A stretch of DNA of 64,000 nucleotides, from assembly GCA_050575255.1 (NCBI GenBank), contig JBNZDD010013686.1, positions 5,809,468-5,873,467 of the forward strand, written 5' to 3'. Source of the DNA: Harriotta raleighana (taxonomy: Eukaryota). The position numbers are program-made. Positions 3,001 through 30,900 of this stretch are shown one piece after another. How positions within the stretch are numbered: position 1 is the stretch's first letter; each line of letters begins with the position of its first letter.

Positions 3001-6000
3001 TCCCAAGGCTTTGAAGAGTCAGGACGGGACCTGAGCAAGGGAGAGGGTCAGGGCAAGGGGGAGGTGCGGGAGAGAGTAGGGAAGGCAGCAGAAGGCATAG
3101 TTGAAGAAGAGGATCTTTAGTCTGGCCTTAAAGGAGGAGAGGGAGCGAGCGAGGCGTAGGGACTAGAATGGATTCCAGAGTGAGAGCAGAGAGGCTGAAA
3201 GCCCGTTCGCTGATGGTAGGGCGGGTTAGGCGGGAGACACGGAGCAGACCAGAGCCCGCTGAACGGAGGGGCTGTGAGGTTCATAAGGGGACAGCAGTTC
3301 GGAGAGGTAGGTGGGGACAAGGCCATGAATGGCCTTGAAGGTGAAAGCTTTGAGTGTGTGAACACAAATCCCATTGCAAAGGTACAATGTGTTGGTCCTC
3401 TTACACACAGTCAGGTGATGCAGCCCTCCACTGGGGGGGAAAAAAACATACACCGAAGAAACCTTTCTGAATACTGGCTTAATTCCTTGTTAACATTCAG
3501 AACTTTTCATGCTCTTTGCTTGCAGAATGGGGAAAGCTTTTATGTCATGGATGAAGCAAAGTTTGCAAAACAGATGCTTCCCAAATACTTTAAACATAAC
3601 AACATGTCCAGCTTTGTTCGTCAGCTGAATATGTGTAAGTATAGTGTGAAGGATAATAAATTAAAATAATAATCCTTGCATTTGAAATAACGCTTTTCAA
3701 GTCTTCTAGACGTCTCAAAGCGCTTCATAGAATATATTGTAAAGTGAATTAACTGTATACTTGTAGGTGAAATCCGGCAGCCAATAGCGCAAAGCAGTAT
3801 CCCACAACAACAACAACAACAACAACAAAACAGTCGTGGATTGAAATTACCAATTTTCTTGTGGGTTTTTTTGTTGGAGGGATTATTATTAGGCTTGTAG
3901 AGTAAGGAAATGTGCCCGAGGTTTCGCCCTGACCTGCCTGGATTCGAACACAGGTCTCACGCTTAGGGAAATAAAACTAATTGTCAATAGATTTATCAAT
4001 ACAAGGTTGTTCCTGTGATTTATTTCTGACATGGTTTAAATCATAACAATAAATAAGGAATGTTAAATAACGGAAATGTAAGCATTGAATCCAAAGTGGT
4101 TAATTGTGTAATAGTGGATTGCACATTATTTGGTTATGGTAGTCAGATTCTTAAGTGCAAATTAATATTTCATAACGCGGACATGATTGTTGCATGTTTA
4201 AACGCTTGTTGTGAGATCTTTGTGAGATCACTTGTATAGTCATAGAGGACGTGCTACGGGAGTTTTTGTGCGCTGTTGGTATGGACATTAACTCAAAATC
4301 CTATGCATTCTGTAGTTTGAGATTGCCATGTATGTCTGAATGACTCAATGCTGTATTTGATGTAGATGGGTTTCGGAAGGTGTTGCATATGGATGGAGGT
4401 CTTTTCAAACAAGACAATGATGGAGTCCTAGAATTCCAGCATCCTTTGTTTCAAAAGGGAAAAGAAGACTTACTGGAAAACATCAAAAGAAAGGTGGGGC
4501 ACTTTTACTGTGGAACCGGTGTTATTACAATACAGTACAAAGTTTCATTTGTAAAGTACCTTTCACATTGGGAGGACATTCCAAGCGGCTGAACAGTCAG
4601 AGATTAGGACCCTCCTGGTGTGAAAGGCACTATACAAGTGTTATGTTATTGTTGTAGGACCCAAGTCTGTGATATTACATACCACAGAACATACATCCAA
4701 TATTAAAAGTGTGTGTTTTGTAGATACCGTCTTCCAGACCAGATGATGTGAAATTGATTCCCAGTGATCTGAATAAAGTTCTTTTGGATATTCAGGAAAT
4801 TAAAGGAAAGCAAGATGGCCTAGAAGACATACTTGTCTCTATGAAGAGGTAAGTGGTGCACCTTCGATAACTGGAAATTGAACAAATGGTTTTGTGAAAT
4901 AAAAATCAGCAATGGGAAATTTGACTTGATGAACTGGTTCAATGGACATCATTCATCTTGAATCTTCAGCAATACAACAACAAAAATTACATTTATAAGG
5001 ATCTTTGGCACAGATATATATTCTGCCTTCGTTTTATTTGTTACTATTTGTTTTTGTGAAGCATTAGATTAGTATTTCTGTTTTAGATGTTTTATATGTG
5101 AACTGTTCTAATTTATTAAGTGATGGTTGAGGTGGGGGGGAAGATGGAGAGAATCACGTTCTACATGGATCCATTGAAAAATGTTCTGTGCTTATCTGCA
5201 GGGAAAACCAGGCCCTGTGGAGAGAAGTGGCCTCATTACGTCGGAAACATGCACAGCAACAGAAATTACTGAATAAGGTGAATAATAATAGCCCATTCAG
5301 TGAATTCCAAAAATAATAATAATCCTTGCATTTGATATAGCACTTTTCACGCCTTCTAGACATCTCAAAGCACTTCACAGAATATACAGTAAAGTGAATT
5401 GACTGTACATTTGTAGGCGAGATGTGACAGCCAATTGCACACAGCAGTGTCCCACAAACAGTCGTGGATTGAAAGTGGCCAAATTATCCAGGCAGGTTTG
5501 AACTAGGTTTGAAACTACCTGGATTCGCTCACGCTTGTAAGGTGAGTGCTCTAACCACTGGGCTACACGACTCCACATGTAATGTAATTCTCTCCAAAGG
5601 CTGCTACAGTAAAATACTATGCGGTATTTGTCTTTCCCTTTCAGCGCCTTGGGACATCCTCTTGACGTGAAAGGCGCTATACAAGTGTAATTTTGTTGTT
5701 CCTGCAGTTTGCTCTTCTGTGAGGAGATCAAACTTCTTCTGTGAACTGGTCTGAGCAAACATTGTGTTTCCTTTTGTAAGAACTGCAGCTTTGCTCAATA
5801 TGGATTACGTGGAGCTCCTGTAGCTCAATGGTTAGAGCACTTGCCTTATTAACGTGAGACTTGTGTTCGAATCCAGGCAGATCAGGGCGAAACCTTGGGC
5901 AAGTTTACTCACTCCACACGCCTAATGATCCCTGCAAAAAAAAAACACAATAAGAAAAATTGGTCATTTTCAATCCACGACTTTGTGGGACGCTGCTGTG

Positions 6001-27900: not shown

Positions 27901-30900
27901 CTCTTCTGTTCTTGACAATAGTGACTAGTGCTGCACTGTTGTTCCGTGGCTGGTCATCGATCACTCTCTGGTTTTCATTCGCATGAGATCAAAATCCATT
28001 CCAGCCCTTGTGGAGTCCTGTAGCTCAGTGGTTAGAGCATTCACAAGCGAGCGAGCTGGGTTCGATTCCAGGCAGGGCGAAACCTTGGACAAGTTTCCTT
28101 ACTTCATAGGCCTAATAATAATCTCTCCCAAAAAGACAACCAATAATAATTTGGTCACTCAATCCATGGCTGCTCGTGGGGACACTGCTGTGCGCAATTG
28201 GCTGCTGAGTTTCATCCACAAATATACAGTCAATTTACTTCACAGTATATTCTGTGAAGCGCTTTGAGACGTCGAGAAGACGTGAAGAGCGCTATATTAA
28301 ATGCAAGGATTATTCTTATTATTATTAGCTTCAGACAACATTTTGCAGAAGCAATGGAGAACTTGAAATGGGTTTGCATATTATCCCAGGCACACCCAGA
28401 GCCAGTCTTACTTAACTTTCCTTCCTGACCCAATGTGTTTAGGAAACATAGATACTACTCAGGGTAACACAGTGGGGTCTGTTTACCCACCGCAAAGACG
28501 CTTAAAGAGCTGTTATTTGTATTCAGTTAGAACATCTTCACAAGATTTCACTCTGTACATGTTTGTTGTTTTGTTGGAGGAATTAGTTTGTGCATTCATC
28601 TTTGTTAGTCAGATATTTTCTTGCTATCGGTGTGTATCATTCCGCATTTGTCCCCAGTGGGGCCAAAAAAGCAAGCGAGCAGCTACGGATCCACGTCTTC
28701 ACCACAAATATGAACAGTTGAAGACGTTGCACAAAAGCCTGGGACAATTTCCAGCTCTGTGAAGAAATGCGCGAACTGTTTTCGCCAAAACGTTCAGGAA
28801 ATGTGCAAGTATTTCTCAATGTCTGCTGCCCATGCGCGAGGCAGGATCTCCACAGTCTAATTGTGAAAGCCCACAGCTTCTCCTTTCACGAACACTATCT
28901 ACAATCGTTTTGCACTCTATGCTTGCTAAATGTTATTTTTCCTGCCAGCCGAATGCTTTGGTCTGTTAGTTGATGCACCGTTTACAACCAGGACGCAGGC
29001 AGTAATTATCATCTCCCCAAGCCTCTCACCTGAGCCTAATGCCCTTTCCGCTTTAGGTAATCCTAGACGCAATCCATTCCAGACATGGGGAAATTTCCAT
29101 TGGGGGTGGCAAAGGCAATATGTGGAAACTCTGGTTTGGATCCACTGGTTTGGAAACTCTTAAGCATACAGTTTCCCCATAGGACAGAAACCCACCCGAC
29201 TAACCCTCCCCCCAAAAAAGTTTCATTTTAACCAAATTGTACTTTAATTGGTGAAAGGCTGAAGATGTATATCACTGTTATTCAACAACAGATTCCTTAG
29301 ATTATCCCCCAAAAAATAATCTTCAAAGGCAGTGTGTCTCATTATAAAGCTCATCCCACTGTTTTTGTCTGGTGTGCAGGACAGTTTTGGAAGTCGAAGC
29401 TTTTAGTTTTGAACCTTAAGTTATATTTCAGGTTCTTTAAACTCACTTCGAAATGACCCAAACTCTCCCACTCACTGAATGAAATACTGTACCGTGGGGG
29501 TGAACTGTGAAGATAAGGCCCATCTGACAGCTTGGTGAAGTCAGGCTGTTTCTTGGCTGTTTCTTTAACTAACCTCAGATGTTAAACCACCCACACAAGT
29601 AACAAACGGCAGCTGAAATGTGCAGACCAGCACTTCACACAATGTTGTAGTAGTTGTCTTTTACTCAATTAACACATCGGAGCTAAATTTAATTATTTTT
29701 TTGGTCAAATAGCATGGTTTCTTTGTGTTAAAAACATGGTTTCTTTGTGTTAAAAGCTTCCTCATTGTACGCCCCTCTTCACAGTGTGCTTGTTTGCTTT
29801 TATTTTGTTCCACTTGCAGTGAGTTTAACTTTTTGTTCCTCAGTTTTGCTCTGAGAGATATATTTGCACTATGGCCGACTTATTAAATGAGAAATGATGG
29901 CTTGTGTTGTGTGCGTGTTTCTGAACAAATGGAAACTTCCAGTTCAAATGAGGACAAACACAAAGCTATGGGATGTCTCATCACACTCAATCACGAGTAG
30001 ATCTGTGGAGTTTTTTTCCTCCATAATATGTATGATAAATTGACACTAACAGCCTAGTAAAGATATATTTATGTATCAGTTGTGAATGATGAACATGTGG
30101 TACATGTATTTTGGTTCAGAAGTATTTCTTCAACTTACCCCACCTTCAAGACATCTCAAATCGCTACACAGGATATATGTACTGTCATGTGAATTCAATG
30201 TATATTTTATGGGCGGCAAAATAAAATGAGGGAACAAGAAGAAAGGTTGTGACAGGCAGAGACTAGATGGGAGGAAAAGTCTCACCTGTGAGATAGATAA
30301 GCACCTGGGAGGAACGAGTTGTGCTGTGGATTCTGAGCACTCACACAAGCAAAGCAAAATAAAGGCCATTCAGATAATTCTGATAAATCTTTAGTTTATT
30401 CCTTCATTTTGACTTCTTTCATCCTTCGTAAACGTTTGACAATGACATGATATATTTATACATACAATATGTTAGTATGTACATGATTAAAACCCATACC
30501 CAATGCACTTTGACATCGTCTAAACACACTCTGCAGATGGAAATACAGTACAGGATTTGGGTTTAAAAATGTTTAAGATCCAAATACTCAGAATAACCTA
30601 CATCACATTCAATTCACAGGCTATGGGGTTATATATTTGTATGTTTGAAGGTGATCACACTATCACAAGTCGTGAAGTCGTGCTCTGGTCTAGTTGCTTG
30701 TCAGCTCTGCGCTTGGGGTATTTGACAAACTGACACTCTTACGAACGGAGTGTCTGAATTCAGCTTGTCAAATACACTTAGCGTAGAAGCTGCGATCAAC
30801 CGGTTGCTGATGTGAAGATTCCTCGCTCCGTCTTTGGTCCCCTTCGGATATCTGAAATGAAACTCGTTCAACTCGGCTATAAATCAAATACACAAACACT

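What the first reader, a model, noticed from the sequence alone, without database searches (positions are those of the whole stretch)
3526..30792. HSF3 - VSIG4-like - mir-223 block in a probable cartilaginous fish
Seen: an HSF gene and a single-IgV receptor in tandem on +, with mir-223 convergent on minus ~9.6 kb after the receptor's stop codon. Established: in tetrapods HSF3 lies between HEPH and VSIG4, and MIR223 lies convergent to VSIG4 on the MSN side. Inference: gene order and orientation predate the bony/cartilaginous fish split, so two myeloid genes have stayed linked, possibly through shared enhancers.
Basis: partly seen in the sequence, partly recalled or inferred. Interest (0 to 1): 0.7.

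Follow-up and report, generated by a model that had tools for sequence, protein, structure and literature searches.

The report
Conserved HSF3–VSIG4–mir-223 gene neighbourhood
A chimaera-like cartilaginous fish carries a heat-shock factor gene (HSF3), a macrophage-type immunoglobulin receptor gene (VSIG4-like) and the microRNA gene mir-223 in the same order and orientation as land vertebrates, an old but ordinary piece of conserved gene order.

Summary
On the + strand lie 12 intact exons of an HSF gene (3526-11032; the first DNA-binding exon is not in the window). They are followed by a six-exon, 250-codon gene for a single-IgV membrane receptor (15932-21131). mir-223 lies on the minus strand at 30696-30803 (Rfam 84 bits), 9,564 bases after the receptor's stop codon.

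The nearest relatives of both proteins are from Callorhinchus milii (66% and 81% identity), so the source is a cartilaginous fish closest to the chimaeras.

The HSF is an HSF3. Its Callorhinchus orthologue falls on the HSF3 side of a 100/100 HSF2|HSF3 split.

The receptor belongs to the VSIG4 (CRIg) clade. This rests on its best sequence and fold matches in the PDB, an IgV tree and a shared two-tyrosine tail motif.

Turtle read-through gene models fuse HSF3 to VSIG4. Papers place HSF3 next to VSIG4 and MIR223 next to VSIG4 in human. The block therefore most likely predates the split of cartilaginous and bony vertebrates.

The "shared enhancers" idea is untested here, and one human study speaks against it. 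HEPH and MSN were not found in the window.

This is a new member of a known kind, of low to moderate interest.

The parts
3526..3634 (+). HSF3 exon, DNA-binding domain middle part (second exon of the family's usual structure; first one present in the window)
   Evidence: Pfam HSF_DNA-bind E 3.7e-13, profile positions 22-61. 100% identical over 36 aa to Callorhinchus HSF3. AG/GT boundaries.
4366..4493 (+). HSF3 exon, end of the DNA-binding domain
   Evidence: Pfam HSF_DNA-bind positions 60-100. 93% identity to P0006. AG/GT boundaries.
4724..4848 (+). HSF3 exon, first part of the HR-A/B coiled coil (label recalled)
   Evidence: tblastn to P0006 at 74% identity. Scores 50.7 bits against other HSF3 versus 32.5 against HSF2. 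AG/GT boundaries.
5202..5277 (+). HSF3 exon, HR-A/B continued
   Evidence: 96% identity to P0006. Scores 70.2 bits against HSF3 versus 54.5 against HSF2. AG/GT boundaries.
6793..6854 (+). HSF3 exon, end of HR-A/B
   Evidence: 95% identity to P0006. AG/GT boundaries.
7246..7324 (+). HSF3 exon, linker
   Evidence: 92% identity to P0006. AG/GT boundaries.
7737..7858 (+). HSF3 exon, variable middle region
   Evidence: 63% identity to P0006. AG/GT boundaries.
8226..8450 (+). HSF3 exon, variable middle region
   Evidence: 71% identity to P0006. AG/GT boundaries.
9487..9592 (+). HSF3 exon, HR-C region
   Evidence: Pfam Vert_HS_TF E 4.1e-06. 94% identity to P0006. Scores 67.7 bits against HSF3 versus 43.1 against HSF2.
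9937..10002 (+). HSF3 exon
   Evidence: 82% identity to P0006. AG/GT boundaries.
10168..10246 (+). HSF3 exon
   Evidence: 73% identity to P0006. AG/GT boundaries.
10689..11032 (+). HSF3 last coding exon with TGA stop at 11030-11032
   Evidence: 81% identity to Callorhinchus 'heat shock factor protein 3 isoform X2'. Scores 58.3 bits against marsupial HSF3 versus 26.1 against HSF2. Sequence.
15932..15986 (+). VSIG4-like exon 1: ATG and signal peptide
   Evidence: tblastn to P0001 residues 2-19 at 72% identity. ATG and GT donor.
16424..16783 (+). VSIG4-like exon 2: the single IgV domain (phase 1 at both ends)
   Evidence: Pfam V-set E 5.6e-17. The top 8 PDB sequence matches are VSIG4. Model pLDDT 91.7, and the top 8 fold matches are CRIg/VSIG4 at TM 0.86-0.92. 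Falls inside the VSIG4 clade in the IgV tree.
17389..17427 (+). VSIG4-like exon 3: short stalk
   Evidence: Matches the stalk of Callorhinchus P0001 (read by eye). AG/GT boundaries and phase 1.
19716..19829 (+). VSIG4-like exon 4: transmembrane segment and basic stop-transfer stretch
   Evidence: tblastn to P0001 residues 154-191 at 79% identity. AG/GT boundaries.
20400..20421 (+). VSIG4-like exon 5: 22-nt cytoplasmic micro-exon, inferred
   Evidence: The phase mismatch between exons 4 and 6 requires it. AG/GT boundaries. Its translation resembles the matching stretch of P0001. There are no RNA data, so this is the least certain exon.
20969..21131 (+). VSIG4-like exon 6: cytoplasmic tail with tandem tyrosine motif, TGA at 21129-21131
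   Evidence: tblastn to P0001 at 76% identity. The tail motif Y..M-x7-Y..M is shared with shark proteins and turtle VSIG4.
30696..30803 (-). mir-223 precursor hairpin
   Evidence: Rfam RF00664 at 84 bits, E 1.8e-19, with a 3' arm identical to the family consensus over the mature region. Fold -40.1 kcal/mol, z -5.74.

Best explanation
The window comes from a cartilaginous fish nearest to the chimaeras. It holds three separate transcription units that are the positional and sequence orthologues of tetrapod HSF3, VSIG4 and MIR223.

HSF3 is a heat-shock transcription factor. Here it has the DNA-binding domain (its first exon lies outside the window), the trimerisation repeats and the HR-C region.

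The VSIG4-like gene encodes a type I membrane protein. It has a signal peptide, one IgV domain with a CRIg-like predicted fold, a short stalk, one transmembrane helix and a tail with two tyrosine motifs 11 residues apart. It most likely acts as a macrophage surface receptor of the complement-receptor-Ig type.

mir-223 is the vertebrate neutrophil/myeloid microRNA. It is transcribed towards the 3' end of the receptor gene.

The order HSF3 -> VSIG4 -> <- mir-223 is inherited from the common ancestor of jawed vertebrates. The simplest reason for its survival is descent without a breakpoint in a short interval (27 kb here), not a demonstrated regulatory tie.

Shown: gene presence, intactness, family assignment, order and orientation. 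Inferred: expression, ligand binding, the age of the block, and the reason it has been kept.
For: mir-223: Rfam 84 bits and a stable hairpin.

HSF3:
- 12 of 12 exon translations are open and are nearest to Callorhinchus HSF3. Other HSF3 proteins score at least as well as HSF2 in 12 of 12 exons: clearly better in 6, marginally better in 4 and tied in 2.
- With the Callorhinchus orthologue P0006 as query, no row named HSF2 appears above row 78 of the 120 listed. No row is named HSF1 or HSF4. HSF3 rows reach 360 bits with 98% cover, against at most 304 bits and 80-84% cover for the 20 HSF2 rows.
- In a careful maximum-likelihood tree of 31 rows, the HSF2|HSF3 split has 100/100 support and Callorhinchus lies on the HSF3 side, with gar and sturgeon (quick tree).

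VSIG4:
- The top 8 of 39 PDB sequence matches are VSIG4.
- The top 8 fold matches are CRIg/VSIG4 at TM 0.86-0.92, against 0.74 for rank 9.
- An IgV-only profile ranks VSIG4-type proteins directly after the chondrichthyan group. 37 of 41 rows at ranks 12-52 score at least 68 bits against turtle VSIG4.
- In the IgV tree a branch with 96% SH-aLRT support joins 12 of 12 chondrichthyan rows (window included), 20 of 20 two-domain VSIG4-type rows and 18 of 20 intermediate rows. All 26 'other' rows fall outside it.
- The tandem tyrosine tail motif occurs in 22 of 48 VSIG4-clade proteins and 0 of 28 others. It is also in the window and in turtle VSIG4.

Synteny elsewhere:
- Turtle models P0076, P0077 and P0114 fuse HSF3 to VSIG4.
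- HSF3 lies between VSIG4 and HEPH in human (PMC13628046, passage).
- VSIG4 neighbours the human mir-223 gene (PMC7907962, passage).
- A gene annotated Vsig4 is expressed in nurse-shark myeloid clusters (PMC10529500, passage).
Against: - The HSF tree has no HSF1 or HSF4 outgroup. It uses the Callorhinchus protein as a proxy, because the window's exons were not joined. Callorhinchus sits on a long branch (1.11), and its position inside the HSF3 side is unresolved (55/17).
- The sequence margin for VSIG4 over pIgR domain 1 in the PDB is small: 35.9 against 32.5 bits.
- The alignment behind the structure model contained VSIG4-clade sequences, which may pull the model towards that fold.
'VSIG4-type' is therefore defined only by similarity to one turtle protein.
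- NCBI names the shark relatives 'uncharacterized' or 'hepatitis A virus cellular receptor 2 homolog', not VSIG4.
- The ESM Atlas returned only generic V-set clusters.
- The second Ig domain found in many VSIG4 proteins is missing.
- HSF3's first exon, HEPH and MSN were not seen.
- The micro-exon at 20400-20421 is inferred without RNA evidence.
Confidence: 0.85

Rival explanations
1. The linkage is kept by selection. VSIG4 and mir-223 (and perhaps HSF3) share myeloid enhancers or one regulatory domain, so breakpoints between them are harmful.
For: Both genes are myeloid in other vertebrates. Nurse-shark Vsig4 is expressed in myeloid clusters, and Mir-223 is described as the top neutrophil-specific microRNA (bioRxiv 10.1101/2024.08.22.609214, passage). 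The order and orientation match those of tetrapods.
Against: No regulatory element was tested here. [quoted passage not shown] The 9.6-kb spacer has taken up at least five copies or fragments of one SINE family, so it tolerates insertions. A 27-kb interval can stay unbroken by chance in slowly rearranging genomes.
Confidence: 0.12
2. The IgV gene is not the VSIG4 orthologue. It is another fast-evolving single-IgV receptor (pIgR/CD300/TIM-like, as NCBI's name for one shark relative suggests) that merely sits at this position.
For: NCBI's names for the shark relatives. The small sequence margin over pIgR D1 in the PDB. Only generic V-set neighbours in the Atlas. The absence of the IgC2 domain.
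Against: The fold search puts 8 CRIg/VSIG4 chains first, with a clear gap to rank 9. The IgV tree places the gene in the VSIG4 clade at 96% SH-aLRT. The tail motif is shared with turtle VSIG4 and absent from 28 of 28 other IgV proteins. It is the only Ig gene between HSF3 and mir-223.
Confidence: 0.07
3. The HSF gene is a different paralogue (HSF2-like, or a lineage-specific copy) or a decaying copy, not a working HSF3.
For: The first DNA-binding exon is missing from the window. The Callorhinchus model used as proxy also starts at the second exon. Exons 2 and 3 barely separate HSF3 from HSF2.
Against: All 12 exons present are open with canonical splice sites. The C-terminal exons are HSF3-specific. 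The HSF2|HSF3 split has 100/100 support. Only 3.5 kb of sequence lies upstream of the first exon present, so the missing exon probably lies beyond the window's edge.
Confidence: 0.04

Closest known systems
Tetrapod HSF3 (chicken, turtle, platypus and mouse type), located between VSIG4 and HEPH
   Same: The same domain layout (HSF DNA-binding domain, coiled-coil region, Vert_HS_TF/HR-C). It groups on the HSF3 side of the HSF2|HSF3 split through its Callorhinchus orthologue. It lies directly upstream of a VSIG4-type gene on the same strand, as in the turtle read-through models.
   Different: Only 37-45% identical to tetrapod HSF3 over the whole protein, measured on the Callorhinchus proxy. The first exon was not seen. 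The 2026 review whose passages I read builds its family trees without fishes, reports no HSF3 in teleosts and does not contain the words shark or cartilaginous.
VSIG4 / CRIg (complement receptor of the immunoglobulin family), human, mouse and turtle
   Same: An IgV domain with the best sequence and fold matches to CRIg. Membership of the VSIG4 clade. A type I membrane layout. A tandem tyrosine tail motif shared with turtle VSIG4. A position between HSF3 and mir-223.
   Different: A single IgV domain and no IgC2 domain. From recall, mouse VSIG4 and the short human isoform also have one domain. Identity to turtle and human VSIG4 IgV is only 27-33%. C3b binding is unknown.
mir-223 (Rfam RF00664)
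   Same: A full-length match well above the gathering score, with a 3' arm identical to the consensus in the mature region. It neighbours VSIG4, as in human.
   Different: The loop and lower stem differ from the consensus. The distance to VSIG4 is 9.6 kb here. The primary transcript and promoter were not identified.

Membership tests
HSF3 (vertebrate heat shock factor 3) | HSF-type winged-helix DNA-binding domain | tested here: met
   Pfam PF00447 on two exons covers profile positions 22-100. Positions 1-21 (the first exon) are not in the window.
HSF3 (vertebrate heat shock factor 3) | Vertebrate HSF C-terminal region with HR-C | tested here: met
   Pfam PF06546 E 4.1e-06 on the exon at 9487-9592.
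HSF3 (vertebrate heat shock factor 3) | Groups with HSF3 rather than HSF1, HSF2 or HSF4 | tested here: met
   The HSF2|HSF3 split has 100/100 support, with the Callorhinchus orthologue on the HSF3 side. Per exon, HSF3 scores at least as well as HSF2 in 12 of 12 exons. No HSF1 or HSF4 rows were available as outgroup.
HSF3 (vertebrate heat shock factor 3) | Genomic position between VSIG4 and HEPH | tested here: inconclusive
   The VSIG4 side is met: the gene lies 4.9 kb downstream on the same strand. The HEPH side lies outside the window.
HSF3 (vertebrate heat shock factor 3) | Heat-induced trimerisation and activation of target genes | not testable with these tools
   Needs an experiment.
VSIG4 / CRIg | N-terminal IgV domain of the CRIg type | tested here: met
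   Pfam V-set. The top 8 PDB sequence matches are VSIG4. The top 8 fold matches are CRIg/VSIG4 at TM 0.86-0.92.
VSIG4 / CRIg | Falls in the clade that holds bona fide VSIG4 | tested here: met
   A branch with 96% SH-aLRT support joins it with turtle VSIG4 and 19 other two-domain VSIG4-type proteins (quick tree, 121 columns). Those rows are unnamed.
VSIG4 / CRIg | Second (IgC2) domain of the long form | tested here: not met
   No second Ig exon was found: 0 of 20 queries below E 0.3. The Callorhinchus and shark models also have one domain. From recall, the feature is not universal in the family.
VSIG4 / CRIg | Binds C3b/iC3b; expressed on tissue macrophages | not testable with these tools
   The only indirect evidence is a gene annotated Vsig4 in nurse-shark myeloid clusters. 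Whether that gene is the same one was not checked.
mir-223 (RF00664) | Reaches the family's gathering score with the full hairpin | tested here: met
   84 bits against 57, model positions 1-106. Fold z -5.74.
mir-223 (RF00664) | Processed to a mature microRNA in myeloid cells | not testable with these tools
   Needs small-RNA sequencing.
HEPH-HSF3-VSIG4-MIR223-MSN synteny block | Order and orientation of the three inner genes | tested here: met
   Window. Turtle HSF3-to-VSIG4 read-through. Human adjacency statements. The human strand orientation is recalled.
HEPH-HSF3-VSIG4-MIR223-MSN synteny block | HEPH and MSN as outer flanks | tested here: inconclusive
   There were no convincing ERM/moesin hits: of the 11 ERM motifs among the 13 patterns scanned, 2 matched once each (GNTK at 2923 on minus, WLKL at 16124 on +), both out of any ERM sequence context. 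None of the 9 long ORFs right of mir-223 reached a Pfam family's cut-off; one had a sub-threshold OrfB_IS605 match, 17.8 bits against 30.5. A full six-frame profile scan was not possible.

The most novel reading that the evidence does not exclude
The HSF3-VSIG4-mir-223 interval is a regulatory block kept intact for more than 400 million years, because the myeloid control elements of mir-223 and VSIG4 interdigitate. In addition, the ancestral VSIG4 was a single-IgV receptor that signalled through an ITAM-like pair of tyrosines (Y..M-x7-Y..M/I/L), a motif still visible from chimaeras to turtles.
Probability: 0.12. Interest if true: 0.6.

Novelty: new member of a known kind. Interest (0 to 1): 0.25.

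Why it matters
The finding extends a gene neighbourhood known from mammals, birds and reptiles to the cartilaginous fishes. It shows that HSF3, which one recent review discusses only for tetrapods and reports as not identified in teleosts, was already present beside VSIG4 in the ancestor of jawed vertebrates.

It also gives positional support for calling the single-IgV 'uncharacterized' proteins of chimaeras and sharks VSIG4 orthologues. That helps comparative work on complement receptors and antigen trapping in sharks.

It does not reveal a new mechanism.

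Tried and rejected
I labelled them by similarity to the turtle VSIG4 part instead.
- Whole-frame Pfam scan of the minus strand right of mir-223, to look for MSN: rejected by the tool because of stop codons. I did not send it again. Only motif scans and long-ORF Pfam scans were done.
- ESM Atlas look-alikes of the IgV exon gave only generic V-set clusters and did not discriminate.
- First HSF3 exon: not found by motif or by tblastn with six HSF3-bearing queries (five HSF3 proteins and the fused turtle model).
- A second Ig exon: not found. A weak, stop-interrupted resemblance at 18507-18611 (E 0.74 and 2.8 against the whole window; E 0.004 and 0.012 against 2.3 kb only) is recorded under things noticed, not used as evidence.
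- Literature: 'HSF3'+'VSIG4' gave 3 papers, none on fishes. 'mir-223'+'synteny'+'shark' gave 0. 'mir-223'+'Callorhinchus' gave 1, unrelated by title. 'HSF3'+'shark' gave 19, of which 10 were listed and none is on vertebrate HSF3 evolution. One search was badly posed and uninformative.
- The window's exons were never joined. Hence there was no full-length search, fold or tree of the window's own proteins.

Full report
**What is in the window.** The 64-kb window has 38-45% G+C and one N, at 27102. Rfam finds one microRNA, mir-223, on the minus strand at 30696-30803. It scores 84 bits against a gathering score of 57, E 1.8e-19, over the full model. Its 3' arm is identical to the family consensus across the mature region. 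The hairpin folds at -40.1 kcal/mol, z -5.74, and 0 of 200 shuffles fold as well. Five tRNA-like Rfam matches all coincide with the 5' heads of copies of one SINE family.

**The HSF gene.** Stop-to-stop ORFs on the + strand carry HSF_DNA-bind (two pieces) and Vert_HS_TF matches.
- The last exon's only database relative at E <= 0.001 is 'heat shock factor protein 3 isoform X2' of Callorhinchus milii (P0006), at 81% identity.
- P0006 maps to the window in 12 colinear tblastn matches covering its residues 1-501, at 61-97% identity.
- I fixed the exon ends by eye and checked them by script. All 12 acceptors are AG and all 11 internal donors are GT. No exon has an in-frame stop. The total is 1521 nt including the TGA.
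- The exon encoding the first ~21 positions of the DNA-binding domain is not in the window. Motif scans and tblastn with six HSF3-bearing queries (five HSF3 proteins and the fused turtle model) found nothing upstream of 3526. Only 3.5 kb lies upstream, so this exon most likely sits beyond the window's edge. The Callorhinchus model also begins at the second exon.

**Which HSF.** No full-length protein of the window was built, searched, folded or placed in a tree.
- Per exon, the nearest protein is Callorhinchus HSF3 in 12 of 12 exons.
- Against a hand-picked panel of 31 named proteins, the best other HSF3 scores at least as high as the best HSF2 in 12 of 12 exons. It is clearly higher in six (the exons at 4724, 5202, 6793, 7246, 9487 and 10689), marginally higher in four (3526, 4366, 8226, 9937) and tied in two (7737, 10168).
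- With the full-length proxy P0006 as query, 2221 proteins passed E 1e-10 and 120 were listed. No row named HSF2 appears above row 78, and none is named HSF1 or HSF4. HSF3 rows reach 360 bits with 98% cover. The 20 HSF2 rows reach at most 304 bits with 80-84% cover.
- I built a careful maximum-likelihood tree of 31 of those 120 rows, chosen to span taxa. Unnamed P0007 and P0080 and the three fused turtle models were left out. The tree gives 100/100 support for the HSF2|HSF3 split. Callorhinchus falls on the HSF3 side, next to gar and sturgeon HSF3, but its exact place there is unresolved (55/17) and its branch is long.
- There was no HSF1 or HSF4 outgroup, so the root is assumed.

**The Ig gene.**
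- The IgV exon (16424-16783) matches Pfam V-set at E 5.6e-17.
- Its database relatives are an 'uncharacterized protein' of Callorhinchus (P0001, 66%) and four shark proteins (43-47%). One of these NCBI calls 'hepatitis A virus cellular receptor 2 homolog'.
- Using P0001 as a guide, I found six coding exons: signal peptide, IgV, a 39-nt stalk, the transmembrane exon, a 22-nt micro-exon and the tail. The micro-exon is inferred from a phase mismatch and from likeness to P0001.
- All splice sites are canonical. The total is 753 nt, or 250 codons plus the stop.

**Is it VSIG4?**
- *PDB sequence search.* The top 8 of 39 distinct matches are VSIG4 (E 6.9e-8 to 4e-7). The margin over pIgR domain 1 is small, 35.9 against 32.5 bits.
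- *Profile search.* A profile of the six chondrichthyan sequences, searched against 1.84 billion representatives, gave 1548 hits at E <= 0.001. I therefore labelled them by BLAST against the Ig part of the turtle model P0077. That part matches human VSIG4 (5imk) at E 6.5e-51.
- *IgV-only ranking.* I ranked 154 proteins by best single-domain score with an IgV-only profile. Ranks 1-11 are the chondrichthyan type. At ranks 12-52, 37 of 41 rows score at least 68 bits against turtle VSIG4. At ranks 53-70 none exceeds 50 bits.
- *IgV tree.* I built a quick tree of 78 IgV domains: the top 85 by domain score, minus those covering fewer than 85 profile positions, plus the window and the turtle. A branch with 96% SH-aLRT support joins all 12 chondrichthyan rows (window included), all 20 two-domain VSIG4-type rows and 18 of 20 intermediate rows. 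All 26 'other' rows fall outside it. The order inside that clade is not resolved.
- *Fold.* An AlphaFold2 model of the IgV exon has pLDDT 91.7. Its eight best PDB fold matches are human and mouse CRIg/VSIG4, with TM 0.86-0.92 and rmsd 1.6-2.0. Rank 9 drops to TM 0.74. The input alignment contained VSIG4-clade sequences, which may favour this outcome.
- *Tail motif.* The tail carries two tyrosine motifs 11 residues apart. The pattern Y..[LIMV]-x6-8-Y..[LIMV] occurs in the last 90 residues of 7 of 11 chondrichthyan, 3 of 19 two-domain and 12 of 18 intermediate proteins, and in 0 of 28 others. It also occurs in the window and in turtle VSIG4. Its likeness to an ITAM is my recollection of that consensus; no function was tested.
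- *Against.* The Atlas look-alikes were generic V-set clusters. There is no second Ig domain: 20 of 20 two-domain queries hit the IgV exon and none hit anything else below E 0.3.

**Synteny.** In the window the HSF3 stop lies 4,899 nt before the receptor's ATG, on the same strand. The receptor's stop lies 9,564 nt before the mir-223 hairpin, which points towards it.
- Three turtle gene models (Chelonia and Dermochelys) read through from HSF3 into VSIG4. The two genes are therefore adjacent and co-oriented there too.
- PMC13628046 (passages read) states that HSF3 lies between VSIG4 and HEPH on human X. [quoted passage not shown] The words shark and cartilaginous do not occur in its main text. 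Its supplementary trees could not be seen.
- PMC7907962 (passage) calls VSIG4 the neighbour of the human mir-223 gene.
- That MIR223 and VSIG4 are convergent in human, with MSN beyond, is recalled.
- MSN: of the 11 ERM motifs among the 13 patterns scanned, 2 matched once each (GNTK at 2923 on minus, WLKL at 16124 on +), both out of any ERM sequence context. None of the nine long ORFs right of mir-223 reached a Pfam family's cut-off; one had a sub-threshold OrfB_IS605 match, 17.8 bits against 30.5. A full profile scan was not possible. MSN and HEPH stay unchecked.

**How it works, and why it stayed together.** These are three independent genes: a heat-shock transcription factor, a macrophage-type IgV receptor and a myeloid microRNA.
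- A gene annotated Vsig4 is expressed in nurse-shark myeloid clusters (PMC10529500, passage). I did not check whether it is this gene family.
- Mir-223 is described as vertebrate-specific and as the top neutrophil-specific microRNA (bioRxiv 10.1101/2024.08.22.609214, passage).
[quoted passage not shown] The spacer in the window also holds at least five copies or fragments of one SINE family.
- Passive retention of a short interval is the better-supported reading. Selection for linkage remains possible, at about 0.12.

**Novelty.** The parts are known. HSF3 is annotated in Callorhinchus, VSIG4 has been used as a marker in sharks, mir-223 is vertebrate-wide, and the tetrapod neighbourhood is in print. 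My searches found no paper describing the three-gene block in a cartilaginous fish. They cover open-access papers and bioRxiv only. This is a new member of a known kind, useful mainly as positional evidence that the 'uncharacterized' single-IgV proteins of chimaeras and sharks are VSIG4 orthologues, and that HSF3 predates bony vertebrates.

**Left open.**
No other vertebrate genome could be compared.
- The names and taxa of the representative proteins are unknown.
- The full-length (joined) analyses were left out by instruction.

Noticed in passing
window, 34 places besides 17700-18010, e.g. 5816-6119, 16961-17270, 19974-20283, 28016-28313, 44473-44786, 46557-46858: A tRNA-derived SINE of about 290 bp has 34 further copies or fragments at 68-94% identity. 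All 5 tRNA-like Rfam matches are its 5' heads. Its translations recur in many ORFs.
   Followed up: partly
window 24098-24151 (+): About 3 kb after the receptor's stop, an AG-preceded open stretch of 17 codons ending in TGA matches the C-terminal exon of the Callorhinchus model P0001 in 12 of 13 residues (E 0.02 against the window). It may be a conserved alternative 3' exon. No matching donor was seen in the window's last exon.
   Followed up: partly
window 18507-18611 (+), in the intron between the stalk and transmembrane exons: A weak, stop-interrupted resemblance to the start of the second (IgC2) domain of two VSIG4-type proteins, with the same Cys-to-Trp spacing of 12. E is 0.74 and 2.8 against the whole window, and 0.004 and 0.012 against 2.3 kb. 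It may be a relic of a lost IgC2 exon or chance.
   Followed up: partly
proteins P0076, P0077, P0114 (Chelonia mydas, Dermochelys coriacea): Public turtle gene models named 'heat shock factor protein 3' are 711-765 aa fusions of HSF3 with VSIG4 (IgV and IgC2, transmembrane segment, tail). They are probably read-through annotation artefacts.
   Followed up: yes
window 20969-21131 and relatives: A tandem tyrosine tail motif (Y..M-x7-Y..M in the window; Y..I-x7-Y..L in turtle VSIG4) has ITAM-like spacing (consensus recalled). It occurs in 22 of 48 VSIG4-clade proteins and 0 of 28 other IgV proteins.
   Followed up: partly
window 31420-31668 (+): An 82-codon open stretch just upstream of mir-223 (on the opposite strand) looks, from recall, like the 3' end of a CR1/L2-type LINE ORF. 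Pfam gave only a sub-threshold OrfB_IS605 match, 17.8 bits against a cut-off of 30.5.
   Followed up: no
protein P0006 (Callorhinchus HSF3 isoform X2): The public model starts with two residues and then the second exon, so it lacks the first part of the DNA-binding domain. The window likewise shows no first exon within 3.5 kb upstream.
   Followed up: no
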